A stretch of 64,000 bases of DNA from an uncultured Thermoplasmata archaeon. Lineage in GTDB: Archaea; Thermoplasmatota; Thermoplasmata; UBA10834. Positions 15,719 to 63,691 of this stretch are shown in pieces. A program made the position numbers and the translations under genes. The notes beneath the pieces were generated by a model that was not told where the DNA came from, searched no databases, and was given only the letters and a program-made list of their open reading frames with translations. Every line of letters starts with the position of its first letter. Within the stretch, counting starts at the first letter, position 1. Location of the stretch: assembly GCA_964644565.1 (NCBI GenBank), contig CAZXWO010000003.1, forward strand, positions 4,613 to 68,612, written 5' to 3'.

Positions 15719-16942
15719 TCAGATGCCGAACGGCTTGTGCCCGCCGCGCCTCAGTGTGTACTTCAGTATCGGCGGGGTCACCAGCGCGGTGGCGAGGCCC
15801 ATGAACACCACCACGGAGTAGACGTCCCCCAGTATTATTCCAGTGGACAGGCCGTAATACGCGATGATGAAGGCGATCTCGAGCCTCGGCATCATGCCCA
15901 CTCCCACCGAGACGGCGTCCCACTTCGACATCCCAGAGAAGCGGGCGGGCAGGGCGCAGCCCAGGACCTTGGACAGGAGCGCAGCGACCGTCAGGACTAC
16001 GCCGAAGATGATGGAGTCCCAGATGTCGCCAAGGTTCACGGCGGTGCCCAGCGACACGAAGAATATGGGGACGAACAGGGCCTCCAGGTACTGAGTCCCC
16101 TTCCTGAAGCCGTCCCTGAGGGCCGAGCCCGAGAAGGCCGTGCCCGCCACGAACGCCCCGACTATGGCGGATATCTGTATCGTCTCTGCGATGAACGCGT
16201 ACAGGAACGCGATGGCCAGCGCGAGGATGAACCCGCTCATGGGCATCTTCCTCCTGTAGCCTGAGATCTGGACGTCGAACACGAGCTTGGCGAGGAACCT
16301 CGACCCGACATACGCCCCGATGACGACGAACAGGACCGCGCCGACCATCAGCAGGCCTATACCAACTGCGTCGAACTCCCCAGAAGCCATGCCCTTCGAG
16401 ATGCCCAGGACGACCATGCCCAGTATGTCGTCGACGACCGCAGCGCCGACGATGGCGTACGCGACTGGGGTGCCGATGAGCCCCAGCTCGGACAGGACGC
16501 TCGCGGTCACGGCCACGCTCGTCGCCACGAGGGTGGCGCCGATGAACACCGCGTCCGCGCCGTACCCGAACAGGTGGGCGACGCCGAACCCGAACACCCA
16601 GGGGATGACCACTCCGCCGAGCGCGATGGAGATCGACTTCCGGGTGTAGATCTCCTTGAGGTCGCACTCGAGGCCGATCATGAAGAGGAGTATTATGGCC
16701 CCCATCTCCGAGAGCATCATGATGGTCTCGGGGAGGCCTGAGGTGCCGCCCGTGCCCTCCCCGATTATGCCGAGGACGCTCGGGCCTATGACCACGCCGA
16801 TGACGATGTACCCTATGACCTTCGGCTGCCCGAACCTCGCGAACAGGAATGCCGCGATGAGCGATACCGCGAGCAGGAAGGTGAGCTCGAACCACACCTC
16901 CTCAAGGAGGGTGTCGAGTATGGACTCCAGTACGACCGACAT
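15719..16942 (-). CDS. cation:proton antiporter (CPA2, Kef/NapA-type), paralog A
   Basis: About 12 TM helices. Contains the GPSVLG, LLFMIGLE and AAVVDDILG motifs of Na+/H+ exchanger family proteins. Confidence 0.88.
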   Translation of the reverse strand: MSVVLESILDTLLEEVWFELTFLLAVSLIAAFLFARFGQPKVIGYIVIGVVIGPSVLGIIGEGTGGTSGLPETIMMLSEMGAIILLFMIGLECDLKEIYTRKSISIALGGVVIPWVFGFGVAHLFGYGADAVFIGATLVATSVAVTASVLSELGLIGTPVAYAIVGAAVVDDILGMVVLGISKGMASGEFDAVGIGLLMVGAVLFVVIGAYVGSRFLAKLVFDVQISGYRRKMPMSGFILALAIAFLYAFIAETIQISAIVGAFVAGTAFSGSALRDGFRKGTQYLEALFVPIFFVSLGTAVNLGDIWDSIIFGVVLTVAALLSKVLGCALPARFSGMSKWDAVSVGVGMMPRLEIAFIIAYYGLSTGIILGDVYSVVVFMGLATALVTPPILKYTLRRGGHKPFGI

Positions 16943-16995: not shown

Positions 16996-19900
16996 TCAGG
17001 GCCCGTAGACGCACCCCTTCACGAGCCACAGGTCGACCGTGTCGCCCGTGTCCTTGAGGAGAAAGCCCGAGACGTACTCCCTCGGCACCCTCTCCAGGTA
17101 CACGCCGAAGTCGACGCGCCACTGCCCCCAGTCCTTGCCGACCAGTCTGCCGAGGCACGGTATGTTCGGCCCGATGGTGGCGACGCACGTGAGTCTCTGC
17201 TCGAGTTCGCTGGTTACTCCCAGGGCAGCGACCATCCTCGGCGTACCTATCTCCCAAAGGACGTCGAAACGCACGTAGAGGCCAGCGAAGAACTCGGTGG
17301 GGAAGGCGGGGTACGCGACGGGGTTGCCCGCCCTGCCTATGTTGACGATGAAGGTCGCGACGGAGTGGATCAGCCACCTGAGCAGGTCCACGATCGCCTC
17401 CCCCGTCACCGCGAAGGAGGCCCGGACCCCGATGCCCGCCGCCCCGGCGGCGTCCCCGAACACGACCTTCACGTACAGGGTGACCTCGTGTACGACGTCC
17501 TTCACGATGGATATCAGGTTCTCGATGAAGTGGTGGAGCACCCGCTTGGCGAGGAGGACCACGAAGTCCAGCGAGGCTGTCACCTCCGAGAGCCTCGTCT
17601 CGTCGAAGGCCTCCTTGAAGGCGGTGAAGAGCGCCTGCGCGATGAAGTCCGAGGTCGCCAGGAGAACGGGCGCGCCGTTCGACAGGCCCTTCGTGCCCTC
17701 CTTGAGGGACCAGCGCGGCCCGCCGTCCCAGGTCCTCTGGTGCGTCCTCCCGTCGTTCTCGTCGTCGCACAGGGTGGGCGTGACGTCCACCGTCTTGCCC
17801 GAGGCGTCCACGAGCACCAGCGAGTCGCCGTCGTTGAGCGGGTCCCCCGGGTAGCCGTTGTCGATGGCCGTCTCGGGGAATGTGAACACGAGCCTGCCGT
17901 TCGGGGGGAGGGTCCCGTAGACCTGCATCTCGTGGCCCTCGCCGTGCATGGTCCTCAGCGTCCACCCGTCCACGCACCTGGTCTCGTCCAGGGGGTTGTA
18001 CAGCTCGACCCATTCCGCGCCCGAGTCGTCCCCCTTCGGGTTCGCCTCGAACTCGTTCACGACGATGTCCGTCGGGAACGGCGGCGAGTACTTGAGCCTC
18101 AGGCCGGCCTCGACCGACGCGCTGAGGCCGAGCATCGGGATGGGTATGTTGGAGAGTAGCGCGCCTGCCCCCGGCAGGTCCGCCGTGCTCACCTCGGCGG
18201 TCTCGTAGGGCTCGGCCTCCGGCATCACCATGTCCAGCGCCCAGCTCTCGGTCCTGCCGTGGACCTCGACCAGCCTGCGCAGCACGGTCATGAGGGGGTC
18301 GACGACCACCTCCACCGACCCCGAGTCGAACGTGAGGGTCCCGTTCACCACCACGTCGAACCTGCCGTCGGAGATCTTGGCGATCCTGAACCCGAACGCT
18401 ATGCCGGGGCCGAACCTGTCCGTGCAGACTATGATGCGGACGAGGTCCTGGGACTTCTTGAAGAGGAGGTCCGGGAGGTTGGTCCTGACGATGAGGGTGA
18501 GGCCGTACATCGACATGCGCAGCTCGACGTTCCCCACGAGGTCGACGAACACCCCCACGGCCTTGCCGAGGACCGAGTCCGCGAACTTGTGCAGGTACTC
18601 CTGGAGGGTCTCGACCATCGCCTGGACGCACCTCGCGATGACCTTCATCACCTTCGTCGTGAAGCTGGCCAACGTCCTGAACGCGTCCTGGACGAAATGG
18701 TAGATCGCCTCGAGGCCGTCCTTGACCCAGCCCAGGGCCGGCTCCAGCTTGTCCCAGAGGTAGTCGCAGAACTTGGCGGCGACGTCCAGGGCGTCTGAGA
18801 AGACCGTGTTGGTCGGGTTGTATTCCACGCCCTCCAGGGGCCACGCGGAGTGGACGACCACCGGGACGCAGACCGACACCAGGACCGGTGTCTCGACGAC
18901 CGGCTCAGGTTCCATTGACGAGACCAGGTATGAGTCGCTGGAGCTCGTCCTCACCTGCACCAGCGCCCTGACGGAGACCTGCCACTGCGTCGCGTACGGG
19001 GCCGCCGAGGCCTCCGCGAGGGAGGTGAGGTGGAGGTTGGGGTACGCGCCCGCGGACCGGTCGTGGTCCCAGGGCCGCTTGACCTGGACGAGGACCTCGT
19101 CCGAGGGGAACATGGATGCCAGCGAGGCGTAGCCTGAGTCGGGGGCGTACGGCACGACGGTCAGGGGCGGGAGGCCACCCGGGACCTCCACGGACAGGGT
19201 GGTGTCGAGGACCGACCCCGACGACTGGGCGGCGTCCAGGTCACCGTCCCAGAACCCGAAGGTGCCGCCGAGGTCGACGTACGCGGACTGCTTGTAGGAC
19301 GACATGCGCTTCTGGGCGAGGGCGGCCTTCGCGAACGCGCCAAGCGCCTGCTCCGCCACCTGCGGGAGCCCGGGGAATGCCGCCGACCCGGTGACCAGCG
19401 CGGCCGCGACCGAGTCGACCATGGGGCCGGCGAACCGGTCGTCGGTCTCGTTCACCGACGCGGTGACTGCCCTGGACAACCCCTGCAGAGCGCACCCGAA
19501 TATGAATCCGAACAGCCCGGACGCCTGAGCGCCGACGCCCCACTCGGAGCTGTCCTCGAGGTCGTTCCTGACGATCTCCCCGAGCTGCTGCTCGATGGGC
19601 ACCCCGAGGTCGGGTATGTACGGGAACTTGGCGCTGGTCATCACGTCATCCGCCACGCCGTCGTACATGGAGTCGAGGAGGGCCTCCGGGACCATCTCGC
19701 CGCCGCGCGACGCGACGAACGACGCGAACGCCTCCGCGAGCCCGTACTGTGCGCTGAACAGCGGGAGCGTGGCGCCGGACGAGAGCACGGCCTCGGGGGA
19801 GAATGACACCTGCACCTCGCCGGCCCGCTCCGACATGGCCGTGAAGAGGTCCACCCCGTCCGCTGGGTCGAAGGCCATGCCCGAGAGCTCGATGGTGCAG

Positions 19901-21429
19901 GTCGACGCGATGTCGAAAGCGACCCGCTTGAGGCTGTCGTATACCAGGTCCGTCAGGGAGCTCTGTCGTTCCTTGAAGTCTGGGTAGAAGTCCTCCCACG
20001 GTCCGTGGGACAGGAGGTCGTGGGCGGGGACGTCGACGGACACCAGCACGCCTCCCACCCAGACGGGGTAGAGCTCGCCGGCGGCGTTCTCCACGAAGTA
20101 CTGTCTCTCCGGGACCAGGACGTTGAAGTCCGGGTCGACCCCGAACACGGTGGTGTGCGATTCTGGGATTGCGCTCGACAGCTCGAGCGTCCTCCTTATC
20201 CATGTCAGGACGGACTCCAGGGACTCGTCCTCGCCCGTGAGGTACTCGACGAAGGAGTCGACCGCCTCCCCCACGGCCTCAATGGCCTGGTCGGCAAGGT
20301 CGAGCGCGCCGAGCCAGCCCATGTAGTCCATCATCCTGATGACCAACTGGTCCGCCATGCCTGAGACCGCCTGTGCCACGAGCATCCTCGGGTCGAGCGC
20401 GGGCTCCGTCTTGCCGAGGAACCAAAGGAACAGCTCCGCGGGGTCCAGGTACCTCCCGTGCGAGCCCTCCAGCGCGGCGAGGCCGAGAGTCCCGCCCCCG
20501 CAGACGGAGGCGACCTCGCGGGCGAACGACTCGTCCACGTCCCTGAAGAGCCTCGCCTGCTCGATCAGGAGGGAGACGGCGACGGCCCTGTACGCGTCCT
20601 CCTCGGTGAGGATGGAGGGTGTGTCCAGGCCGGTGTAGGTCGGGATCCCGTACCCCTCTATCGCCCTCAGCTGGGCCAGGGTCGTCAGCATGTAGCCTAC
20701 GAGCCTGCCCATGTCCGAGAACTCGCCTTCCGAGGCCGCCTCGAAGGCCCTCAGCCGGGCCTCCAGGAACGGAAGCGCCGATATGATCGGCCTGTCGAAC
20801 GAGAGGTCCTTGGAGAGGGACGCGGTCTCCGACAGCGCGACGACGGAGAAGCTGCCCAAGGCAACGAAGTATGGGTTCGCGGTGGTCACTGCGAGTTCGT
20901 CCGTCGTCGGCGCCGGTGGCCGCTCGTACTCCATCTCGGTCCCGTCCAGCACCACGCTGTCCGCTTCGGGTTCCTCCGGGGACACGATGTCCATCGTCTG
21001 CTTCTCGACGAAGAACAGGGACCCGGACCAGTTGGACACATCGAGGGAGTAGCCGCCCAGGGCCCGGGGGAACGTGCCGTCCAAGTAGGCCTGCACCGAG
21101 GAGGAGTACCGCATGGACAACTTCGTCTCGTTGACCGGGTACTCATCCCATCGGGACACGAGGCCGTTGGCCTCCGCGGCCCCGAGCAGGCTCAGCTCCA
21201 GCCTGACCTCCTCGATCGAGGACTCCATGCACGACAGCAGCCTGTCGCGCCTGGCGTCCTCCGCCTTGTCGATCTCCTTCTTGGTGAAGTACGCCCCCGA
21301 CGCGGTGGCGAGCAGCAGCACCGCCACTGCCACCACCGAGAAGGACACTTGGGCCCTGTCGTCGGACGCGAGCCGCTTGAGCGGGCCCGCTCCCATGCTC
21401 CCAGTTAACAGCGCTCCGGACACAGCCAT
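16996..21429 (-). CDS. orphan 1,477-aa surface protein with prepilin-like N-terminus and lamin-tail domain
   Basis: A single uninterrupted ORF with realistic composition. The alternative-frame and antisense ORFs across the same region are R/G/P/H-rich. See the sub-features at 21295..21369 and 17695..18069. Confidence 0.85.
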   Translation of the reverse strand: MAVSGALLTGSMGAGPLKRLASDDRAQVSFSVVAVAVLLLATASGAYFTKKEIDKAEDARRDRLLSCMESSIEEVRLELSLLGAAEANGLVSRWDEYPVNETKLSMRYSSSVQAYLDGTFPRALGGYSLDVSNWSGSLFFVEKQTMDIVSPEEPEADSVVLDGTEMEYERPPAPTTDELAVTTANPYFVALGSFSVVALSETASLSKDLSFDRPIISALPFLEARLRAFEAASEGEFSDMGRLVGYMLTTLAQLRAIEGYGIPTYTGLDTPSILTEEDAYRAVAVSLLIEQARLFRDVDESFAREVASVCGGGTLGLAALEGSHGRYLDPAELFLWFLGKTEPALDPRMLVAQAVSGMADQLVIRMMDYMGWLGALDLADQAIEAVGEAVDSFVEYLTGEDESLESVLTWIRRTLELSSAIPESHTTVFGVDPDFNVLVPERQYFVENAAGELYPVWVGGVLVSVDVPAHDLLSHGPWEDFYPDFKERQSSLTDLVYDSLKRVAFDIASTCTIELSGMAFDPADGVDLFTAMSERAGEVQVSFSPEAVLSSGATLPLFSAQYGLAEAFASFVASRGGEMVPEALLDSMYDGVADDVMTSAKFPYIPDLGVPIEQQLGEIVRNDLEDSSEWGVGAQASGLFGFIFGCALQGLSRAVTASVNETDDRFAGPMVDSVAAALVTGSAAFPGLPQVAEQALGAFAKAALAQKRMSSYKQSAYVDLGGTFGFWDGDLDAAQSSGSVLDTTLSVEVPGGLPPLTVVPYAPDSGYASLASMFPSDEVLVQVKRPWDHDRSAGAYPNLHLTSLAEASAAPYATQWQVSVRALVQVRTSSSDSYLVSSMEPEPVVETPVLVSVCVPVVVHSAWPLEGVEYNPTNTVFSDALDVAAKFCDYLWDKLEPALGWVKDGLEAIYHFVQDAFRTLASFTTKVMKVIARCVQAMVETLQEYLHKFADSVLGKAVGVFVDLVGNVELRMSMYGLTLIVRTNLPDLLFKKSQDLVRIIVCTDRFGPGIAFGFRIAKISDGRFDVVVNGTLTFDSGSVEVVVDPLMTVLRRLVEVHGRTESWALDMVMPEAEPYETAEVSTADLPGAGALLSNIPIPMLGLSASVEAGLRLKYSPPFPTDIVVNEFEANPKGDDSGAEWVELYNPLDETRCVDGWTLRTMHGEGHEMQVYGTLPPNGRLVFTFPETAIDNGYPGDPLNDGDSLVLVDASGKTVDVTPTLCDDENDGRTHQRTWDGGPRWSLKEGTKGLSNGAPVLLATSDFIAQALFTAFKEAFDETRLSEVTASLDFVVLLAKRVLHHFIENLISIVKDVVHEVTLYVKVVFGDAAGAAGIGVRASFAVTGEAIVDLLRWLIHSVATFIVNIGRAGNPVAYPAFPTEFFAGLYVRFDVLWEIGTPRMVAALGVTSELEQRLTCVATIGPNIPCLGRLVGKDWGQWRVDFGVYLERVPREYVSGFLLKDTGDTVDLWLVKGCVYGP
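17695..18069 (-). other. lamin-tail domain (LTD) within the giant protein (aa ~1121-1245)
   Basis: DIVVNEFEANPKGDDSGAEWVELYNPLDETRCVDGWTL...GDSLVLVDASGKTVD matches the LTD signature. Confidence 0.7.
21295..21369 (-). other. candidate class III (type IV prepilin-like) signal peptide of the giant protein (aa 21-45)
   Basis: The sequence is ASDDR-A-Q-VSFSVVAVAVLLLATASG: a charged residue, a small residue and Q, followed by about 20 hydrophobic residues. Confidence 0.45.
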
Positions 21430-21519
21430 CCTCGGGGTGCCGAGCGCGCCCGCATGAGTTGACGCTTACAGTTACATGCAGTCTACGTGGCCGTCCAGGC
21501 CTCCGCCCTATCGTTAAAT

Positions 21520-22815
21520 ATGCCAGATGGTATTCAAGTGCTCGGATGGGATGCGTTGGGCACTGACGAGACCCTCCTCCTGATATTCGTCGCGTTCCTC
21601 GCGGCCAAGGTGGGCGGCGAGATCATGGAGAGGATGAAGTTGCCTGCGGTAGTGGGCGAGCTCTTGGCAGGCGTAGCCCTCGGCCCGTCGATCCTCAACC
21701 TGATCACGGAGGACCAGACCTTCCTGGACGTGCTCGCCCAGCTCGGAGCGACCTTCCTCCTCTTCTCCGTCGGGATGGAGACTAAGCTCTCGGAGCTCAG
21801 GCGGGTGGGCCTCGTGGCGGCCTCCGTCGCCGTGCTCGGGGTGGTCACTCCGTTCATCCTCGGCTACTACGTCTCCGTCCTGCTCCTCATGTCGTCGGTC
21901 GAGGCGATGTTCGTGGGCGCCGCCCTCGTCGCGACGAGCGTCGGCATCACCGCGAGGGTCCTCCAGGACATGGGGATGATCAACACGACGGAGGCAAAGA
22001 TAATCCTCGGCGCGGCGGTCGTCGACGACATCTTGGCCATGATAGTCCTCACGATAGTCTCGGGCAGCGCCACCGGCAACCTGGACACGTTCCACATCGC
22101 GATCGTGATCGCGGAGGCCCTGTGCTTCGTCGCCATCGTCACGATACTGGGCACCAGGATGGTGAGGTACGCCTCCGGCAAGCGCGAGGTCCGGGGGGAC
22201 CGGATGGTGAACGGCACCTACGCCATCCACTACCGCACGAGGGCGTTCAGGAGGGACAGCTGGTTCGAACGGCTAGTCCAGAAGGAGGCACCCTTCGTGG
22301 TGGTCCTGATAGTCCTGTTCGGCCTCTCGGCCATGGCGTCTTACGTCGGCCTCGCCGCGATCATCGGGGCGTTCTTCGCGGGACTGATATTCTCCGACTC
22401 CAAGGAGACCTACGAGCTCGAGCACAAGTTCGAACCCCTGAACGTCCTCCTGGTCCCCTTCTTCTTCGTCGTCATGGGGGCGAAGGTCGGCTTCGCGGAC
22501 CTCTGGGAGGTCGTGCCCCTGGCGATCGTCCTGACGGTGGTCGCGATACTCAGCAAGCTCATCGGGTGCTCCCTGGGGGCCATCAGGCGCGGCGAGCGGA
22601 CGGCGCTGATAGTCGGCGCGGGCATGGTCCCGAGGGGGGAGGTCGGTATCGTCGTGGCCATGATCGGCCTGAACATGGGGACGATCGGCACCAACATCTA
22701 CTCGGTCATCGTCCTGGTGTCGATCGTGACGACCATCTACGCCCCGTTCCTGATCAAGACCGTGATAAAGGCCGAGTCGAAGAAGGCCAAGAGGGCCCAG
22801 GAGCCCTTCCGCTAG
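21520..22815 (+). CDS. cation:proton antiporter (CPA2), paralog B with an extra basic cytoplasmic loop
   Basis: GPSILN, LLFSVGME and AAVVDDILA align with paralog A. The start is ATG 21520 or the upstream GTG 21487. The stop shares the palindrome CTAG with the convergent trmB gene. Confidence 0.85.
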   Translation: MPDGIQVLGWDALGTDETLLLIFVAFLAAKVGGEIMERMKLPAVVGELLAGVALGPSILNLITEDQTFLDVLAQLGATFLLFSVGMETKLSELRRVGLVAASVAVLGVVTPFILGYYVSVLLLMSSVEAMFVGAALVATSVGITARVLQDMGMINTTEAKIILGAAVVDDILAMIVLTIVSGSATGNLDTFHIAIVIAEALCFVAIVTILGTRMVRYASGKREVRGDRMVNGTYAIHYRTRAFRRDSWFERLVQKEAPFVVVLIVLFGLSAMASYVGLAAIIGAFFAGLIFSDSKETYELEHKFEPLNVLLVPFFFVVMGAKVGFADLWEVVPLAIVLTVVAILSKLIGCSLGAIRRGERTALIVGAGMVPRGEVGIVVAMIGLNMGTIGTNIYSVIVLVSIVTTIYAPFLIKTVIKAESKKAKRAQEPFR

Positions 22816-23558
22816 GGCCTCTTCTCCGACATGATCCTGAGGAACTCGTCCAGGTGCGCCGCCAAGGTCTCGTTGTCGGTGTAGCCGCAGGCTGACAGGT
22901 CCGGCGCGGCCAGGAGGGCGGCCTTCCCGTCGCTCACCACGTCGGTCGCTATGAGCCCCTCCCTCCTGACCGCCTCGGTCCCCTTTGGGACCTTCACGAA
23001 GGGGCTGGTGATGACGATCATGCGCACCCCCCTGCTCGCCGCCGCGGCGAAGTGCTTCCCCAGGCGCCTCCTGAGGCCCGTCACGGAGGGGGAGGATATC
23101 ACGAACGTGTGCTCGGACCTGTCCAGCATCTCCCCGATCTTCTCGAACACCCGCTCCTTGCCCATTATCGTGTAGACCAGCTGGGGGACCCCCCTCTCGG
23201 ACAGGATGTTCTTGACCGATCCTATCCTCTCGAACGACTCGCGCACCTCGGTCACCACGCGCACGGATATGTCCGAGGGCTCGACCGGGGAGAACGAGCG
23301 GGGCCTGCCCGGCTTCGACTGCGCGAAGCCCTTGGATTCGAGGGACTTCATGACCTTGTAGGCAGATGTCCTCGGAATCTGTGCCACCTCAGCTACAAGA
23401 TTCGCCGTTCCTGAGCCGAGCGCCACGAGCGCGACGTACCCCCTCGCCTCGTAGTCGGATAGGCCGAGCCTGAGGAGCACCCTGGATATCTTCCCGTACT
23501 CCTGCAGCAGGTCCTCCGCGTCGAGGCCCATCTTCGATATCACCGACTTCAGGTCCAT
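22812..23558 (-). CDS. TrmB-family transcription regulator
   Basis: LGLSDYEARGYVALVALGSGTANLVAEVAQIPRTSAYKVMKSLESKGF is a TrmB N-terminal wHTH. The C-terminal domain is TrmB-like. Confidence 0.85.
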   Translation of the reverse strand: MDLKSVISKMGLDAEDLLQEYGKISRVLLRLGLSDYEARGYVALVALGSGTANLVAEVAQIPRTSAYKVMKSLESKGFAQSKPGRPRSFSPVEPSDISVRVVTEVRESFERIGSVKNILSERGVPQLVYTIMGKERVFEKIGEMLDRSEHTFVISSPSVTGLRRRLGKHFAAAASRGVRMIVITSPFVKVPKGTEAVRREGLIATDVVSDGKAALLAAPDLSACGYTDNETLAAHLDEFLRIMSEKRP

Positions 23559-23629: not shown

Positions 23630-25183
23630 ATGCTCACCAAGGATTCTGCGCTGGCCGTAGGTCTCCCTAAGAAGACGGAGAGCCTCTGCCCTGAATGCCT
23701 GACCGTGATAGAAGCGACGATGCGCGAGGAGAACGGCAAGGTCGTGATCGAGAAGACCTGCCCGAAGCACGGGGACTTCAAGGACGTCGTGTGGTCGGAC
23801 GTCAAGACCTACCTGAGGGTCGAGAAGTGGGCCAAGGACGGCATCGGCGTCGAGTCGCCCGCCATACCGAAGGCGAAGCAGTGCCCGTTCGACTGCGGCC
23901 TCTGCGACCTCCACCTCAGCCACACCGCGCTCTCGAACGTCGACCTGACCAACAGGTGCAACCTCAAGTGCCCGATATGCTTCGCGAACGCGAACGCGGC
24001 AGGGTACGTCTACGAGCCGGACTTCGACACCGTCGTCGCTATGCTCAAGATGCTCAGGGACCAGAGGCCCGTCCCGTGCCCCGCGGTGCAGTTCTCCGGC
24101 GGGGAGCCGACGATCTACCCCCGGTTCTTCGACATCATAAAGGCGGCCAGGGACATGGGTTTCGCCCAGGTCCAGGCCGCGACGAACGGCATCGAGTTCG
24201 CGAAGAGCATCGACTTCTGCAGGAAGGCGAGCGAGGCCGGCCTGAACACGATCTACCTCCAGTTCGACGGGCTCCGCCCGGAGATATACGAGAGGGCCAG
24301 GGGCAAGAACCTGATGGACGTCAAGCAGAAGGTCGTCGACAACCACAGGCAGCTGGCCAACCACCCGTCGATAGTCCTGGTGCCCACGGTCGTCAAGGGC
24401 GTCAACGACGACCAGGTCTGGCCCATACTCGAGTACGCCATCAAGAACAACGACGTCGTGAGGGGTGTCAACTACCAGCCCGTGGCCTTCACCGGGAGGA
24501 TCACCACCGAGGAGCTGGAGAAGGGGAGGTACACCCTGACGGACCTGATACACGACATAGAGAGGCAGTCCGCGGGCAGGGTCCGGGCGACCGACTGGTA
24601 CCCCGTCCCGACCGTCGTCGCGGTGTCCGAGCTGGTCGGCGCCATCGCGGGCCGGAACATGGTCACCTTCACCAACCACGTGCACTGCGGGCTCGCCACC
24701 TACCTGTTCGTCAAGGACGTCGACAACATCGTGCCGGTGACGAGGTTCATCGAAGTCGACGACCTCTTCGCGGAGATGTACGAGCTCGCGAAGAAGAGCA
24801 GCGGGAAGAGAATCCAGGCGTTCACGAAGGTCAAGGCCTTCAACCTGTTGAAGAAGTACATGAAGAAGGACGAGGTCCCCGACGGCATGGACACGATGCA
24901 GTTCCTCAAGGTCCTCGGCAGGGTCTTCTCCGAGGACACCAAGAAGGGCCTGTCGAAGTTCAGCTGGAACATGATGTACATCGGCGCGATGCACTTCATG
25001 GACGCGTACAACTACGACATCGAGAGGGTGAAGAGGTGCAGCATCCACTACACCACCCCGGACATGAAGCTGATACCGTTCTGCGCCTACAACTCCGGAC
25101 CCGTGTACAGGACGGGCGTGGAGAAGAAGTTCTCCATACCGCTGGCGGAGTGGAGGAAGAGGCACGGGGACCAGTACACGTGA
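23630..25183 (+). CDS. tes: tetraether lipid synthase-like radical SAM enzyme (Tes / GDGT-MAS family)
   Basis: The radical SAM core CNLKCPIC is at 23957-23980. An additional CPFDCGLC cluster is at 23882-23905. The N-terminus has a CPEC...CPKH zinc-ribbon-like motif. Length is 517 aa, and the gene is followed by ferredoxin and GGR as in Methanosarcina. Confidence 0.8.
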   Translation: MLTKDSALAVGLPKKTESLCPECLTVIEATMREENGKVVIEKTCPKHGDFKDVVWSDVKTYLRVEKWAKDGIGVESPAIPKAKQCPFDCGLCDLHLSHTALSNVDLTNRCNLKCPICFANANAAGYVYEPDFDTVVAMLKMLRDQRPVPCPAVQFSGGEPTIYPRFFDIIKAARDMGFAQVQAATNGIEFAKSIDFCRKASEAGLNTIYLQFDGLRPEIYERARGKNLMDVKQKVVDNHRQLANHPSIVLVPTVVKGVNDDQVWPILEYAIKNNDVVRGVNYQPVAFTGRITTEELEKGRYTLTDLIHDIERQSAGRVRATDWYPVPTVVAVSELVGAIAGRNMVTFTNHVHCGLATYLFVKDVDNIVPVTRFIEVDDLFAEMYELAKKSSGKRIQAFTKVKAFNLLKKYMKKDEVPDGMDTMQFLKVLGRVFSEDTKKGLSKFSWNMMYIGAMHFMDAYNYDIERVKRCSIHYTTPDMKLIPFCAYNSGPVYRTGVEKKFSIPLAEWRKRHGDQYT

Positions 25184-25184
25184 G

Positions 25185-25391
25185 GTGTTCATATTGGACA
25201 AGGACAGGCTCGACGAGCTGGAAGTGGACATAGACAGGTGCATGCACTGCGGGGCTTGCGTAGGCTCGTGCCCGCGCAACGCGATCACGCTGAGGGAGGT
25301 CCTCATCGAGTTCAACGACGACTGCAACCTCTGCAAGAGGTGCATCAAGGCGTGCCCGGTCGGCGCGATAAGCCTCGTGGAGGATGACTGA
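25185..25391 (+). CDS. 2x[4Fe-4S] ferredoxin
   Basis: Contains two classic clusters, CMHCGACVGSCP and CNLCKRCIKACP. It starts 2 nt after the tes stop and overlaps the GGR start. Confidence 0.9.
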   Translation: MFILDKDRLDELEVDIDRCMHCGACVGSCPRNAITLREVLIEFNDDCNLCKRCIKACPVGAISLVEDD

Positions 25392-26580
25392 GATGAAGCG
25401 CGATTACGACGTCGTCGTGGTGGGCGCTGGCCCGGCCGGCTCCATGACCGCGAAGTGGGCGGCCAAGAAGGGCGCCAAGGTGCTCATGATAGAGAAGAGG
25501 CAGGAGATCGGCTCCCCGGTGAGGTGCGGGGAGGGAATATCGAGGTCGTGGCACGACTCCGTCGGGCTCAAGCTCGACAAGAAGAGCGTGGCTTGGGAGG
25601 TCAAGGGCGCGAAGCTCGTCTCCCCCAACGGTTCGACGTTCTACCTCTCCGAGAAGATGGCCGGCGACGAGGTCGGCTTAGTCATCGACAGGGTGTTCTT
25701 CGACAAGCTCCTGGCGAGGGACGCCATCAAGGCCGGCTCAGACCTCCAGCTCAAGACCTCCGCGACGAAGCTCCTCAAGTCGGGGAACAAGGTCGTCGGG
25801 GTCAGGGTCAGGTCGATGGAGGGGACCAGGGACATCACGTGCGGGTGCGTCGTCGCCGCGGACGGGTTCGAGTCCCAGGTCGGGCGGTGGGCCGGGATCG
25901 ACACCAGCCTGGCGCCGAGGGACATCACGAGCTGCTTCCAGTACAGGCTCACCAACATAGACCAGGACTTCGACTACTGCGAGTTCGTCCTGGGCAGCAA
26001 GGCCCCGGGCGGGTACATCTGGATATTCCCCAAGAACAAGGACACGGCCAACGTGGGCATAGGCATGCAGCTGACCAAGCTCAGCCGCCCCGCTGACGTG
26101 AAGAAGCAGCTGGACAAGTTCATACAGGGGGACCCGAGGCTCAGGAAGGGCAGGCCCCTGGAGCTCGTGAGCGGCGCGGTGTCGATATGCGCCCCCATCG
26201 AGAAGACCGTGGGCGACGGCATACTCCTCGTGGGCGACGCAGCGAGGCAGATCGACCCCATCACTGGCGGAGGCATATCCAACTCGTGCAAGGCCGGCAA
26301 GGTCGCGGGCGAGGTCCTCGCGAAGGCCACCAAGGAGAACGACTTCAGCGAGAAGTCCCTCGGCAGGTACGAGAAGGGCTGGCGCGACCTCCTCGAGAAC
26401 CAGCTCTACAGGAACTGGCTCGCGAAGGAGAAGCTCGTGACCCTAAGCGACGAGACCTTCGACAAGGTCATCACGACTCTCAACGAGGTCGGCGTGGAGA
26501 AGATGTCCACCTTCGCGATACTCAAGGCCATAAAGACGAGGTACCCGGAGCTCGTGAAGGAGTTCGAGGAGTTCCTCTGA
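25384..26580 (+). CDS. geranylgeranyl reductase (digeranylgeranylglycerophospholipid reductase family)
   Basis: YDVVVVGAGPAGS is the FAD-binding motif. RCGEG and GDAARQIDPITGGGI are also present. Confidence 0.92.
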   Translation: MTEMKRDYDVVVVGAGPAGSMTAKWAAKKGAKVLMIEKRQEIGSPVRCGEGISRSWHDSVGLKLDKKSVAWEVKGAKLVSPNGSTFYLSEKMAGDEVGLVIDRVFFDKLLARDAIKAGSDLQLKTSATKLLKSGNKVVGVRVRSMEGTRDITCGCVVAADGFESQVGRWAGIDTSLAPRDITSCFQYRLTNIDQDFDYCEFVLGSKAPGGYIWIFPKNKDTANVGIGMQLTKLSRPADVKKQLDKFIQGDPRLRKGRPLELVSGAVSICAPIEKTVGDGILLVGDAARQIDPITGGGISNSCKAGKVAGEVLAKATKENDFSEKSLGRYEKGWRDLLENQLYRNWLAKEKLVTLSDETFDKVITTLNEVGVEKMSTFAILKAIKTRYPELVKEFEEFL

Positions 26581-26638: not shown

Positions 26639-28174
26639 ATGAGTGTGCTCGCCAGCCTCACCGAGACCAGGCGGAGGACCCTCATCACCTTCCTGCTGAT
26701 ACTGGCCCTCGCTGCCGCGATAAGGCTCTACAACATCGGCTGGAGCTTCTCCAACAACGGCGTGGACGAGGGGGTGATGCTCCAGAGGGCTCTCCTCATC
26801 AGCAGGGACTTCGACCTCTACACCGACATACCCTGCGACCAGGCGCCCCTGGCGTTCTACTTCGGCGCCCTCCTCAAGGGGGACGTGGTCACGCTCAGGG
26901 CCCTGAACGCGGCGCTGTCCATCGGGGCGATCGCCGCGTGCATGTTCGTGGCCAGGAAGATCGGCGGCGACATCGCCATGGCCGCCACGGGCCTCTTCCT
27001 GGCGGTCGACTTCGCCTTCGTCAGGGAGGCCAGGCTGTTCTCCCTGGACGGGATGGCGACCTACATGCTCGCGTTCGGCCTGCTGTCGTTCTACTTCTAC
27101 GCGAAGAGGCGGGACAGGCTCGCGATCTTCCTCACAGGGCTGTTCATCGGCCTCGCCACCGCGGTGAAGCTCCTGGGCGGGCTCGGCCTCCTGGCCCTGG
27201 TCCTGTTCTTCGCGGTAGAGGCCCTGAAGGACAGGTCGTTCAAGGCGTCCAGGGCGGCGGACCTCGCCCTGATGGTCGGGGCGGCGGCCGTCCCCATGGC
27301 GGTCTTCCTCTTCACCCTCGGCCCGTCCGAGATGCTGCAGGGCATGGTCTTCGACCAGGCGCACAGGGAGTTCGAGCCGCTGTTCAAGCTCTCCATACTG
27401 GCGTACCTCGGGCTCAACCTCACATACATCCTCCCCCTGATGTACGCGCGCGACCTCTGGGCCATCGGGCCCGAGGTGAGGTACCTCGTCCTGGTGACGG
27501 CCGTGGTCCTCGCCTTCATGATACTGCAGCCCCTCGTGTTCTTCCACCACATGGTCCTCATGAGCCCCGCCCTCGCGATCCTCGCGGGGTTCGTGACCTC
27601 CGAGACGGTCAAGTTCAAAAAGGGTCAACATAAGAAGAGCCACCTATACTATGTGCTCAAAAAGGATGTCACCCTCAGGCGCTTCGCCACCCTGGTCATC
27701 ATGGTGGACCTCGCCGCGTCCACGGGGCTCGCGTTCTACGGCATGGCGATGCAGGGCGAGCCCTCGGAGATCGTGTACGCCGAGAGGCTCGCGGAGATCA
27801 CGGACCAGGACGATTGGGTCATAACGGGGGACCCGCTCATAGCGACCTACGCCGACCGGCAGGTGCCGCCGGAGGTCGTGAACGTCGCGTACAGGAGGTA
27901 CCCGCAGCTCACCCTCGAGGGCCTCCAGGACGCGATAGAGAAGTACAACGTCTCCGTGGTCGTGGTCTGCTTCAGGCTCAAGGACATCGAGGGGTTCGTC
28001 CAGTACCTCCGCGAGAACGACTTCGCCATGGTGGTCCCGTGGTGGGTGGGGCAGGGCGACGACACGGTCCTGGACCTGTTCGAGGGGAGCATAGACCCCA
28101 CCTACTTCTACGTCAAGTACGACGTCGCTGCCATGTACGACATACCGATCATAAACCCTAAGTCCGCGACTTAG
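26639..28174 (+). CDS. GT39/PMT_2-type (ArnT-like) polyprenyl-phosphate-sugar-dependent glycosyltransferase
   Basis: Multi-TM N-terminal part with a DEG motif in the first loop (NNGVDEGVMLQRA), plus a C-terminal soluble domain. Confidence 0.75.
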   Translation: MSVLASLTETRRRTLITFLLILALAAAIRLYNIGWSFSNNGVDEGVMLQRALLISRDFDLYTDIPCDQAPLAFYFGALLKGDVVTLRALNAALSIGAIAACMFVARKIGGDIAMAATGLFLAVDFAFVREARLFSLDGMATYMLAFGLLSFYFYAKRRDRLAIFLTGLFIGLATAVKLLGGLGLLALVLFFAVEALKDRSFKASRAADLALMVGAAAVPMAVFLFTLGPSEMLQGMVFDQAHREFEPLFKLSILAYLGLNLTYILPLMYARDLWAIGPEVRYLVLVTAVVLAFMILQPLVFFHHMVLMSPALAILAGFVTSETVKFKKGQHKKSHLYYVLKKDVTLRRFATLVIMVDLAASTGLAFYGMAMQGEPSEIVYAERLAEITDQDDWVITGDPLIATYADRQVPPEVVNVAYRRYPQLTLEGLQDAIEKYNVSVVVVCFRLKDIEGFVQYLRENDFAMVVPWWVGQGDDTVLDLFEGSIDPTYFYVKYDVAAMYDIPIINPKSAT

Positions 28175-29261
28175 GGCGCATGTCCGCCTCGAAGGTCCAC
28201 AGGGCGTTGGCGAAGAAGTTGAAGGTGCTCACGAGGAATATGCACAGCAACTGCGCAGAGACCTGGTACAGGCTCGCCTTGTCCTCGACGAGGCCGAGCG
28301 CGGGGAACAGGTGGTCCGTGAAGGCCGAGTACAGGATGATGTTGAGCATCAGCCCGTCGAAGCTGACCACCAGGAACTGGGGGTACTGGAAGTGGACCTT
28401 CCCCTTCGACCTGAAGGTCCACCACCTGTTCCAGATGAAGTTGTTGGTGTCGGCGACGACGAAGGCCAACGCGATCGCCAGGATCTCGTTGACGTAGAAG
28501 ACCTCGATCGAGGTCCAGAATATGGCGAGGTTGATCAGGGTCCCTATCCCGCCGACGAACGCGAACTTGAGGTACTTCGCGAGCCAGGGCTTCCGGTGCT
28601 CGTAGAGCGAGATGCAGTGGTCGATGTACTTGAGCGTCACGGAGGCGCCCAGCTTGCTCTTGCCGGCCTTCCGGTCCGCGAAGGTGATGGGGACCTCCTC
28701 CACCTTGGAGACCTTCCCCTTGACCAGTATCTCGAGGGCGATCTTGTACCCTATGGGGTTCAGCTCCACGCCCTCCACGACCTCGCGCTTGATGGCGAAG
28801 AAGCCGCTCATGGGGTCCTTGACCTTCGTGAGGCCGCGGGCCAGCAGCGTCGCCGACTTGGACATCAGCCTCCTGCGGAACGGCCAGTTCTCGACGTGGC
28901 CGCCCTCGACGTACCTGCTGCCTATCACCATGTCGGCGCCGCCCTTGGTTATGCGCTCCACCATCTCGGAGATCTTCTCTGGCGGGTGGCTCAGGTCGGC
29001 GTCCATGACCACCAGGACGGAGCCCGACGCGGCCTCGAACCCCTCAAGGACCGCCGTCGACAGGCCCAGCTTGCCCGCCCTGTGGACGACCTTCACACTG
29101 AAGCTCTTGCCGAGCTTCTCGGCGAGGTCCCCGGTGCCGTCGGGGCTGTTGTCGTCCACGATGATGATCTCGTGGCCCATGCGGGTCGCAGAGCAGGCGG
29201 CGCTCGTCCTGCGCACGAGCTCCTCGATGTTGTCCTTCTCGTTGTAGGTCGGGATGATCAC
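28158..29261 (-). CDS. dolichyl/polyprenyl-phosphate hexose synthase-type GT2 fused to a GtrA-like 4-TM domain
   Basis: IIPTYNEKDNIEELV, IIVDDNSPDGT and DADLSHPP are GT2 motifs. The C-terminal FAFVGGIGTLINLAIFW region is GtrA-like. There is no ATG at the onset of homology. The proposed GTG at 29261 forms a GTGA overlap with the dedA stop. The rest of track ORF (to 29603) is a spurious extension. Confidence 0.8.
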   Translation of the reverse strand: MIIPTYNEKDNIEELVRRTSAACSATRMGHEIIIVDDNSPDGTGDLAEKLGKSFSVKVVHRAGKLGLSTAVLEGFEAASGSVLVVMDADLSHPPEKISEMVERITKGGADMVIGSRYVEGGHVENWPFRRRLMSKSATLLARGLTKVKDPMSGFFAIKREVVEGVELNPIGYKIALEILVKGKVSKVEEVPITFADRKAGKSKLGASVTLKYIDHCISLYEHRKPWLAKYLKFAFVGGIGTLINLAIFWTSIEVFYVNEILAIALAFVVADTNNFIWNRWWTFRSKGKVHFQYPQFLVVSFDGLMLNIILYSAFTDHLFPALGLVEDKASLYQVSAQLLCIFLVSTFNFFANALWTFEADMRPKSRT

Positions 29262-29803: not shown

Positions 29804-29855
29804 CCCGTAGTCGCCGAGCGAGGCGAACAGCGAGATGATGTCCTCACCGAGCAGG

Positions 29856-30890: not shown

Positions 30891-31022
30891 CGGAGGACCG
30901 ACCTGCCGGCGGGACGTTTCACTCGTCCTCGACCGGCTCCCGCGAGCATCCCCCTGCGTGGATAAATAAATACCTAGGAGGTTCGGGACCGCGGGCCGCG
31001 CCGTGCCTGGCCCGTCCCGGAA

Positions 31023-32770: not shown

Positions 32771-32815
32771 GGTCGGAGCGGTAATCGGGCTCTCCGCCTA
32801 TAAACGAATCGAAGC

Positions 32816-55834: not shown

Positions 55835-56135
55835 CGGTTCGATGAGGATTTCAATCTTAAACTATTCGGCTGACATGTAATCCGTGAGCGGCCTCCGCGG
55901 CAGTGCTGGCGACCTGCATATCCACGGGGAGGGGCGCAGGGGTACGTCTCACCTCATGAGGCTGGGACAATAGCAGGCGTGAGCAGCATAACCGCGACGA
56001 ATCGAACTGACGATTCTGAGGCAGCGAGAACGAGACGCCAGGCCGGGCGGATCTGCAGTCGGGTTGGAAAATCGTGAAAAGGGTTTACGAATCAATACGA
56101 ATTGAACGAATAATTCATGAAAATGAACTGAACGA

Positions 56136-56909: not shown

Positions 56910-56944
56910 TGACCGCGGTCCGATTTCCCTAACGGTAATCGGAG

Positions 56945-61196: not shown

Positions 61197-61224
61197 AAAG
61201 CCAGAGAGTGCAAACCGGGCGTTC

Positions 61225-62440: not shown

Positions 62441-62475
62441 GTTAATATGGCCGAAACAGATGCAGGCTAGCTTTC

Positions 62476-63687: not shown

Positions 63688-63691
63688 GGGT

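What the first reader, a model, noticed from the sequence alone, without database searches (positions are those of the whole stretch)
16996..21429. Orphan 1,477-aa surface giant with a prepilin-like (class III) signal and a lamin-tail domain
Seen in the sequence: this is the largest gene in the window, and the protein is acidic with few Cys and no obvious internal tandem repeats. The N-terminus reads ...KRLASDDR-A-Q-VSFSVVAVAVLLLATASGAYF, which is a charged residue, a small residue, Gln, and then about 20 hydrophobic residues. Residues ~1121-1245 (nt 17695-18069) read DIVVNEFEANPKGDDSGAEWVELYNPLDETRCVDGWTL...GDSLVLVDASG. Long amphipathic helical stretches (about aa 880-960 and 1260-1365) flank this beta-rich part. 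Established knowledge: archaeal type IV pilin-like proteins carry [K/R]-[G/A]-cleavage-[Q/A/S] followed by a hydrophobic helix, processed by PibD/FlaK-type peptidases. The second motif block matches the lamin-tail-domain signature (NE-x-NP-x-G-x-D-x-EW-[VI]-EL-[YF]-N ... G-W). Inference: a pilin-like anchored or pilus-associated giant adhesin or surface factor. No assembly ATPase, platform protein or prepilin peptidase is nearby. I cannot name a family for the roughly 1,300 non-LTD residues.
Basis: partly seen in the sequence, partly recalled or inferred. Interest (0 to 1): 0.7.

Follow-up and report, generated by a model that had tools for sequence, protein, structure and literature searches.

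The report
Conserved giant archaeal envelope protein
This 1,477-residue gene is not an orphan: it belongs to a conserved, uncharacterised family of giant membrane-anchored surface proteins in wall-less Thermoplasmatota archaea (including relatives of gut methanogens), with a prepilin-like N-terminus, a lamin-tail Ig domain and about 1,100 residues matching no known fold.

Summary
The sequence observations hold. The ORF at 16996-21429 (-) is real, acidic (pI 4.4) and free of repeats. It has one N-terminal hydrophobic helix. Residues 1120-1245 are a genuine lamin-tail domain by Pfam (above threshold) and by fold.

The label "orphan" is wrong. Full-length orthologues (49-98% identity, about 1,477 aa) fill at least 99 protein clusters. 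A profile of residues 1-1119 finds 441 representative clusters. Every named member is Thermoplasmatota, including Methanomassiliicoccales. Gene order is conserved across this divergence: GGR, ferredoxin and tetraether synthase Tes, then TrmB, the giant, a CPA2 antiporter or MscS channel, then SerRS.

The "class III signal" reading is partly supported. The window site R-A|Q-V has the same form as listed archaeal prepilin sites. A small residue at -1 occurs in 84 of 85 divergent relatives, after short charged leaders. Against it, -2 is not conserved, and +1 is often Arg or Lys outside this family. No pilus gene lies near any of the roughly 50 loci examined, and at least one Methanomassiliicoccus genome has no pilus ATPase.

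My best reading is an N-terminally anchored extracellular envelope or adhesion scaffold, not a pilus subunit. Its function is unknown, and residues 1-1119 match no solved or viral structure.

The parts
16996..21429 (-). Whole gene, 1,477 codons plus stop
   Evidence: ORF list, translation and GC3 of 0.94. Full-length orthologues exist.
21352..21429 (-). Variable charged leader, residues 1-26. An alternative start at Met12 would give a 15-residue leader.
   Evidence: Mean identity to orthologues is 0.30, the lowest of any region. pLDDT is below 50.
21340..21363 (-). Conserved N-terminal motif D-D-R-A|Q-V-S-F, residues 23-30; putative prepilin-type site between Ala26 and Gln27
   Evidence: D-x-x-[A/G]-Q-V-S-F occurs in 84 of 84 orthologues. 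G/A at -1 holds in 84 of 85 divergent relatives. Compare the RAQI and KGQV sites in PMC4371748.
21286..21351 (-). Single hydrophobic helix, residues 27-48; membrane anchor
   Evidence: This is the top Kyte-Doolittle window (2.14). The model places it at the start of one continuous helix, residues 30-92.
20170..21285 (-). N-terminal module shared by the whole superfamily, residues 49-420: stalk helix, beta-sheet 122-215, helical domain 219-420
   Evidence: Alignment A6 of 17 divergent members has invariant F30, G192, P220, Q253, R255, G259, D278, R296, D329, Q353 and D360. In the profile search, many of the more distant superfamily members match best over this module (best matched stretch within about positions 1-450 of the query profile). 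pLDDT is mostly 80-95.
18835..20169 (-). Middle region, residues 421-865: second helical domain (477-710) and a beta-rich domain (711-865) carrying the invariant Y-P-N-x-H-L-T motif
   Evidence: Model secondary structure. Invariant columns P786, N798, H800, T802 and W816 hold across both families. Foldseek found no match with E-value 0.001 or better.
18535..18807 (-). Long amphipathic helix of about 90 residues, 875-965
   Evidence: Both overlapping models agree. Confidence is low over residues 934-962.
18073..18525 (-). Beta domain, residues 969-1119, immediately before the LTD
   Evidence: Model strands 969-1114. Mean identity to orthologues is 0.69.
17695..18072 (-). Lamin-tail domain (Ig-like), residues 1120-1245
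   Evidence: Pfam PF00932, E 1.7e-9, above the gathering score. Foldseek matches lamin A/C, B1 and B2 Ig folds at probability 1.00. The domain is absent from the roughly 1,275-aa sister family.
16999..17667 (-). C-terminal module, residues 1255-1477: helices, a hairpin and a beta-sheet, with no membrane segment and no sorting signal
   Evidence: Model of residues 860-1477. Mean identity is 0.62-0.69. It aligns to the C-terminus of the LTD-less family.
15719..16942 (-). Downstream co-directional CPA2 cation:proton antiporter, 53 bp after the giant gene; possible operon partner
   Evidence: Pfam Na_H_Exchanger and NCBIfam CPA2. It holds the same position in all family-1 loci that extend that far. 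An MscS channel replaces it in Methanomassiliicoccaceae and in family 2.
21487..22815 (+). Upstream divergent CPA2 antiporter, a paralogue 33-35% identical to the downstream one
22812..23558 (-). TrmB-family regulator, co-directional with the giant gene; directly upstream of it in Methanomassiliicoccales
23630..26580 (+). Membrane-lipid genes: tetraether lipid synthase Tes (23630-25183), 2x[4Fe-4S] ferredoxin (25185-25391) and geranylgeranyl reductase (25384-26580); conserved neighbours of the giant gene
   Evidence: NCBIfam NF045702, 649 bits against a cutoff of 450. ORF list. Synteny in more than 40 loci.

Best explanation
The gene encodes a single-copy, vertically inherited cell-envelope protein of wall-less Thermoplasmata.

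Shown:
- A short variable leader and one hydrophobic N-terminal helix are followed by about 1,430 acidic residues.
- These residues form conserved alpha and beta modules with no known fold, with a lamin-tail Ig domain inserted at 1120-1245.
- The family is conserved along its whole length, across a phylum, in a stable chromosomal neighbourhood.

Inferred:
- The protein is exported with its N-terminus in the cytoplasm and its bulk outside the cell, and it stays attached through the N-terminal helix.
- The invariant G/A residue in front of that helix is probably a recognition site for a PibD/FlaK-type prepilin peptidase. That enzyme would remove the leader and leave the helix as the anchor. Many archaeal surface proteins with class III signals that are not pilins are processed this way.
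- The ectodomain then acts as a structural or adhesive surface scaffold. The LTD serves as its ligand- or membrane-binding module.
- In relatives, the same N-terminal module instead carries PKD or Big domains, or transglutaminase-like or papain-like domains.
- The protein is not a fibre-forming pilin.
For: Family size and conservation:
- The ORF is real and has one hydrophobic segment.
- At least 99 orthologue clusters share nearly the same length. The wider superfamily has 441 representative clusters, 211 of them at E<=1e-30.
- Every named member is Thermoplasmatota or Methanomassiliicoccales.
- Conservation is even along the protein and highest in the C-terminal third.
- The gene is single-copy in this window.

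Neighbourhood:
- Gene order is kept in more than 40 loci while the giant protein falls from 77% to 25% identity.

Evidence for an outside location:
- The LTD is confirmed by HMM and by fold.
- Relatives carry PKD, Big_5, TSP3, TGase_elicitor and Peptidase_C39_2 modules.
- Three N-x-S/T sequons are conserved in 15 of 15 aligned orthologues.
- A glycosylation gene cluster lies next to the lipid genes.

N-terminal site:
- [A/G]-Q-V-S-F occurs in 84 of 84 orthologues.
- G/A at -1 holds in 84 of 85 divergent relatives, with leaders mostly 7-13 residues.
- The site form matches listed archaeal processing sites, and most predicted PibD substrates are not pilins (PMC4371748).

No pilus genes were found nearby.
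Against: - Nothing here measures location, processing or function.
- The -2 position is not the usual K/R in most orthologues.
- The +1 position is Arg or Lys in 39 of 85 superfamily members. This fits a plain positive-inside signal anchor as well as, or better than, a cleavage site.
- The leader from the annotated start is 26 residues, which is long for a class III signal.
- Only four sequons in 1,477 residues is few for an archaeal surface glycoprotein.
- Models have only moderate confidence (mean pLDDT 69 and 75), and the protein could be folded only as two tiles.
- Conserved polar residues in the N-terminal module (Q253, R255, D278, R296, D329, Q353, D360) could mark an enzyme or binding site rather than a scaffold.
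Confidence: 0.55

Rival explanations
1. It is a true type IV pilin-like subunit. A prepilin peptidase cleaves between Ala26 and Gln27. A pilus machinery encoded elsewhere in the genome then incorporates it, probably as a giant tip or minor pilin that presents the LTD as an adhesin.
For: - The R-A|Q-V site has the same form as EppA/FlaFind sites, and EppA requires Gln at +1.
- G/A at -1 is invariant and leaders are short across the superfamily.
- The model shows a 63-residue N-terminal helix followed by an antiparallel sheet.
- In one distant relative (L090), two small upstream genes have similar N-termini, for example D-E-K-A-Q-A-S-L-F plus a hydrophobic run.
- Pilin genes are often unlinked from their assembly genes.
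Against: - No ATPase, platform or peptidase gene lies in the window or beside any homologue examined.
- Ca. M. intestinalis has no VirB11-type pilus ATPase, yet Methanomassiliicoccus genomes carry the family.
- Foldseek gave no pilin or archaellin match.
- The -2 and +1 positions are atypical across the family.
- There is no Glu at +5.
Confidence: 0.17
2. It is a plain type II membrane protein. The N-terminal segment is an uncleaved Sec/YidC signal anchor. The conserved G/A-x-V-[S/P]-F motif is a structural feature at the membrane interface, not a cleavage site.
For: - Arg or Lys sits immediately before the hydrophobic run in 39 of 85 relatives, which is the positive-inside pattern.
- The hydrophobic run is 21 or more residues long and ends in a nearly invariant Tyr47.
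- The model shows one continuous helix from residue 30 to 92.
- There is no pilus context (calls as above).
Against: An ordinary anchor does not require a small residue at one fixed position in 84 of 85 members that are otherwise 20-25% identical. Short charged leaders followed by G/A define the class III architecture.
Confidence: 0.2
3. It is a mechanical or osmotic envelope element that works together with the adjacent channel or antiporter and with membrane-lipid synthesis. On this reading it is a tension-bearing surface tether or sensor of wall-less cells.
For: - The gene directly downstream and co-directional, 30-53 bp away, is an MscS channel in two different genomic contexts. One is family 2 (PstSCB, giant, MscS). 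The other is Methanomassiliicoccaceae (TrmB, giant, MscS, SerRS).
- In family 1 the same position holds a CPA2 antiporter.
- Tes, ferredoxin and GGR stay next to the gene from family 1 to Methanomethylophilaceae.
Against: - SerRS, L10e and Dph2 stay in the same block, so the whole segment may simply be slow to rearrange.
- MscS is missing in many Methanomassiliicoccales loci and in L093.
- No direct evidence of co-transcription or interaction exists.
Confidence: 0.08

Closest known systems
Lamin-tail domain (Pfam PF00932) proteins of bacteria and archaea, for example the extracellular nuclease ExeM
   Same: Residues 1120-1245 are a bona fide LTD by HMM and by fold. As in other prokaryotic LTD proteins, the host protein is membrane-associated or extracellular (PMC6085458).
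   Different: The LTD is under 9% of the protein and sits between modules unrelated to any known LTD partner; no hydrolase, OB-fold or repeat array is present. A sister family has the same scaffold without the LTD. The role of prokaryotic LTDs is itself unresolved.
Archaeal class III (prepilin-like) signal-peptide proteins: archaellins, Epd/Pil/Ups/Aap pilins and non-pilin PibD substrates
   Same: A charged leader, G/A at -1, Gln at +1 and a 21-residue hydrophobic helix. R-A-Q-V resembles RAQI and KGQV.
   Different: It is 1,477 residues against about 130-550 for typical pilins. The -2 residue is not conserved, and +1 is Arg or Lys in many relatives. There is no Glu at +5, no linked assembly genes and no pilin fold match.
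Pfam DUF7286 (PF23957), an uncharacterised family modelled at about 1,000 positions
   Same: It is the only Pfam family hit repeatedly by the N-terminal module of the superfamily: 9 of 17 divergent members, best E 3.9e-4, covering the N-terminal motif and up to 270 profile positions.
   Different: All hits fall below the gathering score (16-18 bits against 27). The window protein gives no hit at E<=0.1. No paper in the library mentions DUF7286 or its numbered neighbours.
Modular type IV pilins and large pilus-tip adhesins (recalled from memory: S. sanguinis PilB/PilC; cited: PilY1-like DUF2341 proteins of archaeal clade-1 loci)
   Same: The general idea is shared: a pilin-type N-terminal helix carrying bulky binding modules (PMC4858521 discusses large pilus-associated proteins).
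   Different: Those proteins are encoded inside pilus loci, and this one never is in the loci seen. It has no DUF2341 domain.

Membership tests
Lamin-tail domain (PF00932) | Match to the Pfam HMM above the gathering score | tested here: met
   38.5 bits against 34.3, E 1.7e-9, residues 1120-1216. Orthologues score up to 50 bits.
Lamin-tail domain (PF00932) | Ig-like beta-sandwich fold of the lamin globular tail | tested here: met
   Foldseek matches 3gef, 3jt0, 1ifr and 2lll at probability 1.00, target TM 0.53-0.64.
Archaeal class III signal peptide / type IV pilin-like | Short charged leader, then G/A at -1 | tested here: met
   Ala26 follows K18, R19 and R25. A/G holds in 84 of 84 orthologues and 84 of 85 superfamily members. 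Leaders are mostly 7-13 residues in relatives; here the leader is 26, or 15 from Met12.
Archaeal class III signal peptide / type IV pilin-like | Charged residue (usually K/R) at -2 and an allowed residue at +1 | tested here: inconclusive
   The window has R at -2 and Q at +1, like RAQI and KGQV. But -2 is R in only 17 of 84 orthologues, and +1 is R/K in 39 of 85 superfamily members. FlaFind itself could not be run.
Archaeal class III signal peptide / type IV pilin-like | About 20 hydrophobic residues directly after the site | tested here: met
   Residues 28-48, VSFSVVAVAVLLLATASGAYF. The Kyte-Doolittle maximum is 2.14.
Archaeal class III signal peptide / type IV pilin-like | Cleavage by a PibD/FlaK/EppA peptidase encoded in the same genome | not testable with these tools
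   Only 64 kb of the genome is available. No Peptidase_A24 gene is among the genes scanned.
Type IV pilus system component | Genomic or functional link to an assembly ATPase and a platform protein | tested here: not met
   None is present in the window or in any homologue locus examined. Ca. M. intestinalis has no such ATPase. Unlinked machinery elsewhere in this genome cannot be excluded.
Type IV pilin fold | N-terminal helix packed on an antiparallel sheet, recognisable against solved pilins or archaellins | tested here: inconclusive
   The model has helix 30-92 and a sheet at 122-215. Foldseek returned no pilin or archaellin among its best matches and nothing at E<=1e-3. The 1,119-residue model was searched whole (Foldseek aligns locally); the N-terminal part could not be searched as a separate model.
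DUF7286 (PF23957) | Match to the Pfam HMM above the gathering score (27 bits) | tested here: not met
   The window protein has no hit at E<=1 for the whole protein or at E<=0.1 for its N-terminal module. Relatives score 15-18 bits.
Characterised adhesin or S-layer families | Any Pfam or NCBIfam model of an S-layer, adhesin or sorting signal (PGF-CTERM or similar), or a C-terminal anchor | tested here: not met
   Only the LTD is found in Pfam, and nothing meaningful in NCBIfam. There is no second membrane segment.

The most novel reading that the evidence does not exclude
The family could be the main envelope scaffold of wall-less Thermoplasmata, including Methanomassiliicoccales. On this reading it is a giant ectoprotein held in the tetraether membrane by a prepilin-type helix. 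A prepilin peptidase would process that helix in lineages that have lost pili. The protein would work together with the adjacent MscS or CPA2 transporters, and with Tes/GGR lipid synthesis, to bear or sense membrane tension. That would be a previously unrecognised kind of archaeal envelope component built from new folds.
Probability: 0.1. Interest if true: 0.8.

Novelty: new variant of a known kind. Interest (0 to 1): 0.5.

Why it matters
Thermoplasmatota mostly lack a cell wall, and little is known about what organises their surface. The phylum includes the Methanomassiliicoccales of the human and animal gut. Here is a phylum-wide, single-copy protein of about 160 kDa. Roughly 1,100 of its residues match no Pfam family with a known function and no solved or viral structure. 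It always lies next to the tetraether-lipid genes, and often next to a mechanosensitive channel. That makes it a concrete candidate for an envelope or adhesion factor.

Its N-terminus also offers a clean test of whether prepilin-type processing is used for non-pilus proteins in lineages with few or no pilus ATPases. If it proves to be an ordinary anchored surface protein, the value is more modest: a new domain family to name and a corrected "orphan" label.

Tried and rejected
- NCBIfam scan of the protein gave only noise.
- PDB sequence searches with the family profiles A2 and A6 returned only helical-bias hits with E>1e-6 and no biological sense.
- Foldseek of the C-terminal tile also listed porins, but with TM about 0.1 and rmsd above 20 Å. 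I rejected these as long-strand noise.
- Foldseek of the N-terminal tile against the PDB and the viral BFVD library found nothing at E<=1e-3. This gives no support for a viral-fusion-like or tail-fibre-like reading.
- tblastn of the LTD-less relative against plasmids found no match.
- The third homology search, using the divergent N-module profile, returned only four fragments and added nothing.
- The genome scan with the mixed alignment A3 failed for lack of a conserved stretch. The repeat with A1 used LTD peptide patterns, so LTD-less relatives were not sampled, and about half of the 80 loci are unrelated LTD proteins.
- Literature searches for DUF7286 and DUF7283-7289, and for lamin-tail domains in archaea or Methanomassiliicoccales, found nothing on this family.
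- An internal duplication of the two helix-plus-sheet halves flanking the LTD was rejected (hhalign probability 2%).
- A Sec signal peptide cleaved after A-S-G45 was considered and judged less likely. The hydrophobic run is 21 or more residues, ends in a conserved Tyr, and continues as one helix in the model.
- My recollection that DUF7286 sits in a haloarchaeal pilus-like operon could not be checked and is not used. The only trace is an insignificant DUF7287 hit (E 0.15) on a small gene upstream of a distant relative.
Full report

Yes. ORF 16996..21429 on the minus strand encodes 1,477 residues from an ATG. Its GC content at codon positions 1/2/3 is 0.63/0.44/0.94, the pattern of every credible gene in this 64%-GC window. 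It is the largest gene there; the next is a 986-aa MMPL transporter.

The protein is acidic (203 D+E against 104 K+R, pI 4.42) and has 13 Cys. Tandem Repeats Finder finds nothing in the gene. A profile-profile test of the two helix-plus-sheet halves that flank the LTD gives a probability of 2%, so there is no internal duplication.

The N-terminus reads as quoted. The strongest hydrophobic stretch is residues about 26-48. The only other window above threshold, near residue 844, is a beta-strand in the structure model.

Pfam places a lamin-tail domain at 1120-1216 (E 1.7e-9, 38.5 bits, gathering score 34.3). An AlphaFold2 model of residues 860-1477 (70-sequence alignment, mean pLDDT 69) matches the Ig folds of lamins A/C, B1 and B2 with Foldseek probability 1.00 and target TM 0.53-0.64. 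The predicted helices are at 875-965. The second stretch reads as helix 1260-1277, helix 1287-1312, a hairpin, then helix 1343-1363.

**2. It is not an orphan.**

A search of 5.8 billion proteins returns at least 99 clusters of full-length relatives at 49-98% identity. Nearly all are 1,440-1,506 residues, and all carry the LTD. Where named, they are called "lamin tail domain-containing protein" or "hypothetical protein" from Thermoplasmata or Thermoplasmatota MAGs.

One hit at 26% identity (P0101, 1,275 aa) leads to a sister family of about 20 clusters. It aligns from N- to C-terminus but lacks the LTD.

A profile of residues 1-1119 built from both families was searched against 1.84 billion representatives. 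It finds 441 clusters at E<=1e-3 and 211 at E<=1e-30, with lengths up to 2,145 residues (most full-length members about 1,250 or more, plus shorter partial sequences).

Every member with a source name is Thermoplasmatota, including Methanomassiliicoccaceae and Methanomethylophilaceae. More distant members keep the first 400 or so residues but carry other modules further along: three PKD domains plus Big_5, Peptidase_C39_2, or TSP3 repeats plus a transglutaminase-elicitor domain.

The shared N-terminal module has invariant F30, G192, P220, Q253, R255, G259, D278, R296, D329, Q353 and D360 across members only 20-27% identical.

**3. Context.**

In the window the gene lies between two paralogous CPA2 cation:proton antiporters. 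One is 53 bp downstream and co-directional. The other is divergent, 57 bp upstream.

Beyond the upstream antiporter come four further genes. These are a co-directional TrmB regulator, tetraether lipid synthase Tes (NCBIfam NF045702, 649 bits against a cutoff of 450), a 68-aa ferredoxin and a geranylgeranyl reductase. A glycosylation cluster follows. On the other side are SerRS, L10e and Dph2.

I compared these proteins by tblastn with 52 fetched loci. The order GGR, ferredoxin and Tes, then TrmB, the giant, and SerRS is kept from close relatives to Methanomassiliicoccales. There the giant protein is only 25-30% identical, while SerRS and Tes remain at about 60% (gene calls in 14, 39, 41).

The gene immediately downstream is a CPA2 antiporter in this family. 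It is an MscS channel in Methanomassiliicoccaceae. It is also MscS in the LTD-less family, whose surroundings are otherwise different (PstSCB upstream; amino-acid permease, an Arf-like GTPase and FtsZ downstream). One locus of that family has lost the channel.

No pilus ATPase, platform protein or prepilin peptidase appears in the window genes scanned or in any of these loci (and those above).

**4. The N-terminus.**

Within the orthologue family, every one of 84 sequences with an intact N-terminus has D(-4)-x-x-[A or G](-1)-Q(+1)-V-S-F-[S/A]-V-[I/V]-A. The residues before this motif are poorly conserved, at 30% identity.

I then examined 85 divergent representatives. The search pattern left the -1 and +1 positions free. 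The -1 residue is G (51) or A (33) in 84 of 85. Leaders are 5-39 residues, mostly 7-13. This is the layout of a class III (prepilin-type) signal.

A review table of archaeal pilins lists processing sites RAQI, KGQV, KGQL and KGQI for the Methanococcus EppA substrates, which require Gln at +1. It lists KAIS, RALS, RAVS and DAVS for PibD substrates. The window's R-A|Q-V has the same form (PMC4371748). The same review notes that most predicted PibD substrates are not pilins: 47 in Haloferax volcanii, of which six are the adhesion pilins.

Several points count against a canonical site.
- The -2 residue is Arg in only 17 of 84 orthologues, against Ser in 20 and Ala in 16.
- Across the superfamily, -2 is R/K in 37 of 85.
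- The +1 residue is Arg (31) or Lys (8) in many members. That looks like the positive-inside flank of a plain signal anchor.
- There is no Glu at +5.

The published census of archaeal type IV pilus systems reports pilus-type ATPases missing from Methanomassiliicoccus. Its Table S3 lists zero for Ca. M. intestinalis, and one clade-4 ATPase each for Ca. Methanomethylophilus alvus and strain BRNA1 (PMC4858521). The giant family is present in Methanomassiliicoccus and Methanomethylophilaceae genomes.

Processing at the G/A site therefore remains plausible; I put it near 45%. Assembly into a pilus is unlikely for the family as a whole.

**5. Structure.**

The model of residues 1-1119 (mean pLDDT 75; 738 residues at 70 or above) has these elements in order:
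- a disordered leader;
- one helix from residue 30 to 92;
- a short helix and a sheet of long strands (122-215);
- a helical domain (219-420) carrying the superfamily's invariant polar residues;
- a second helical domain (477-710);
- a beta-rich domain (711-865);
- a helix of about 90 residues (876-965);
- another beta domain (969-1114).

Foldseek finds no match at E<=1e-3 in the PDB or in the BFVD viral library. Sequence-profile searches of the PDB find nothing meaningful. The LTD therefore remains the only recognisable part.

The only Pfam family hit repeatedly by the N-terminal module is DUF7286 (9 of 17 members, best E 3.9e-4). All these hits fall below threshold, the window protein itself gives none, and nothing has been published on that family.

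**6. What it most likely is and does.**

I read it as an N-terminally anchored, extracellular envelope or adhesion scaffold of wall-less Thermoplasmata, vertically inherited and under even purifying constraint.

Mean identity to orthologues is 0.45-0.60 in the N-terminal modules and 0.62-0.69 in the C-terminal third including the LTD. This pattern does not suggest a diversifying adhesin.

The outside location is inferred from four lines of evidence:
- the single N-terminal helix;
- the LTD and the extracellular-type modules in relatives;
- three sequons conserved in 15 of 15 aligned orthologues;
- the acidic composition.

What the LTD binds is unknown. For prokaryotic LTDs in general, the only proposal is targeting to membranes or membrane-associated structures (Mans et al. 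2004, as summarised in PMC6085458).

The neighbourhood of lipid-synthesis genes and a channel or antiporter is suggestive. It may only reflect a slowly rearranging block, because housekeeping genes stay in it too. The one signal that survives a change of surroundings is the giant-then-MscS pair, seen in two different contexts.

**7. Comparison and novelty.**

- LTD membership: met.
- Class III signal features: met for the leader, the -1 residue and the hydrophobic helix; inconclusive for -2 and +1; untestable for the peptidase.
- Pilus linkage: not met.
- DUF7286 membership: not met.
- No adhesin or S-layer family applies.

The protein is thus a variant of a known kind, an archaeal surface protein with a prepilin-like anchor and an Ig-type binding domain. 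Its roughly 1,100-residue core is a new, unnamed domain architecture.

**8. Verdict.**

The sequence features are real. The "orphan" label is wrong, and "pilus-associated" is unsupported. The gene marks a phylum-wide family of unknown function that deserves experimental attention in cultured Methanomassiliicoccales. Interest is 0.5.

Noticed in passing
window 23630-26580 (+): An operon-like trio lies two genes from the giant gene. It comprises tetraether lipid synthase Tes (NF045702, 649 bits), a 68-aa 2x[4Fe-4S] ferredoxin (25185-25391) and a geranylgeranyl reductase. The trio stays next to the giant gene from this lineage to Methanomethylophilaceae.
   Followed up: yes
L003 5454-6836, L006 13886-15292, L092 9829-11214, L007 14169-15485; also L032-L036 and L042: An MscS-type mechanosensitive channel gene follows the giant gene co-directionally, within 30-46 bp in the loci with gene calls (L003, L006, L007, L092) and about 120-170 bp by tblastn match edges in L032-L036 and L042. 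This occurs in two otherwise different genomic contexts: the LTD-less family and Methanomassiliicoccaceae. In the window's family a CPA2 antiporter holds that position.
   Followed up: partly
window 15719-16942 (-) and 21487-22815 (+): Two CPA2 cation:proton antiporter paralogues, 33-35% identical to each other, bracket the giant gene. This arrangement is conserved in most family-1 loci.
   Followed up: partly
window 26639-34408: A glycosylation cluster lies beside the lipid genes. It contains a PMT-family glycosyltransferase, GT2 with a GtrA domain, GT4, an EamA transporter, an amidohydrolase and a polysaccharide-biosynthesis (flippase-type) protein. The PMT gene keeps its position in the family-1 loci.
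   Followed up: partly
L090 8899-9976 (+): Two small genes (162 and 194 aa) lie directly upstream of a distant 1,478-aa relative. The 194-aa gene has a pilin-like N-terminus (...TEDEKAQASLFDALMFFTVMLIASMLIF); the 162-aa gene has a charged leader followed by a hydrophobic run. The 162-aa gene gives an insignificant DUF7287 hit (E 0.15).
   Followed up: partly
L089 2096-8560 (-) and 10001-15778 (+): Two paralogous giants of the superfamily (2,154 and 1,925 aa) lie in divergent orientation, about 1.4 kb apart with one 320-aa gene between them, near an AglB/STT3-containing protein. Some lineages therefore carry more than one copy.
   Followed up: no
window 56000-64000: GC content drops from about 0.63 to 0.51-0.57. 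The genes there include a double-HTH AsnC-type regulator, a RIO/kinase-like protein, a bPH_2 protein and several ORFs with no Pfam match. This may be a horizontally acquired segment.
   Followed up: partly
window 63864-63928 (+): A fluoride riboswitch (Rfam RF01734, 48.2 bits, E 2.7e-10) sits at the edge of the window. It is the only Rfam match, and no tRNA genes were found anywhere in the 64 kb.
   Followed up: no
window 43599-46559 (+): A 986-aa MMPL/RND-type transporter (PF03176, E 1.6e-109) is the second-largest gene in the window.
   Followed up: no
window 21430-21520: A TATTTAA element lies about 85-90 nt upstream of the giant gene's ATG, inside the 5' end of the divergent antiporter ORF as called from GTG 21487. 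The antiporter's true start, or the giant gene's (Met12 at 21396), may therefore differ from the longest-ORF calls.
   Followed up: no
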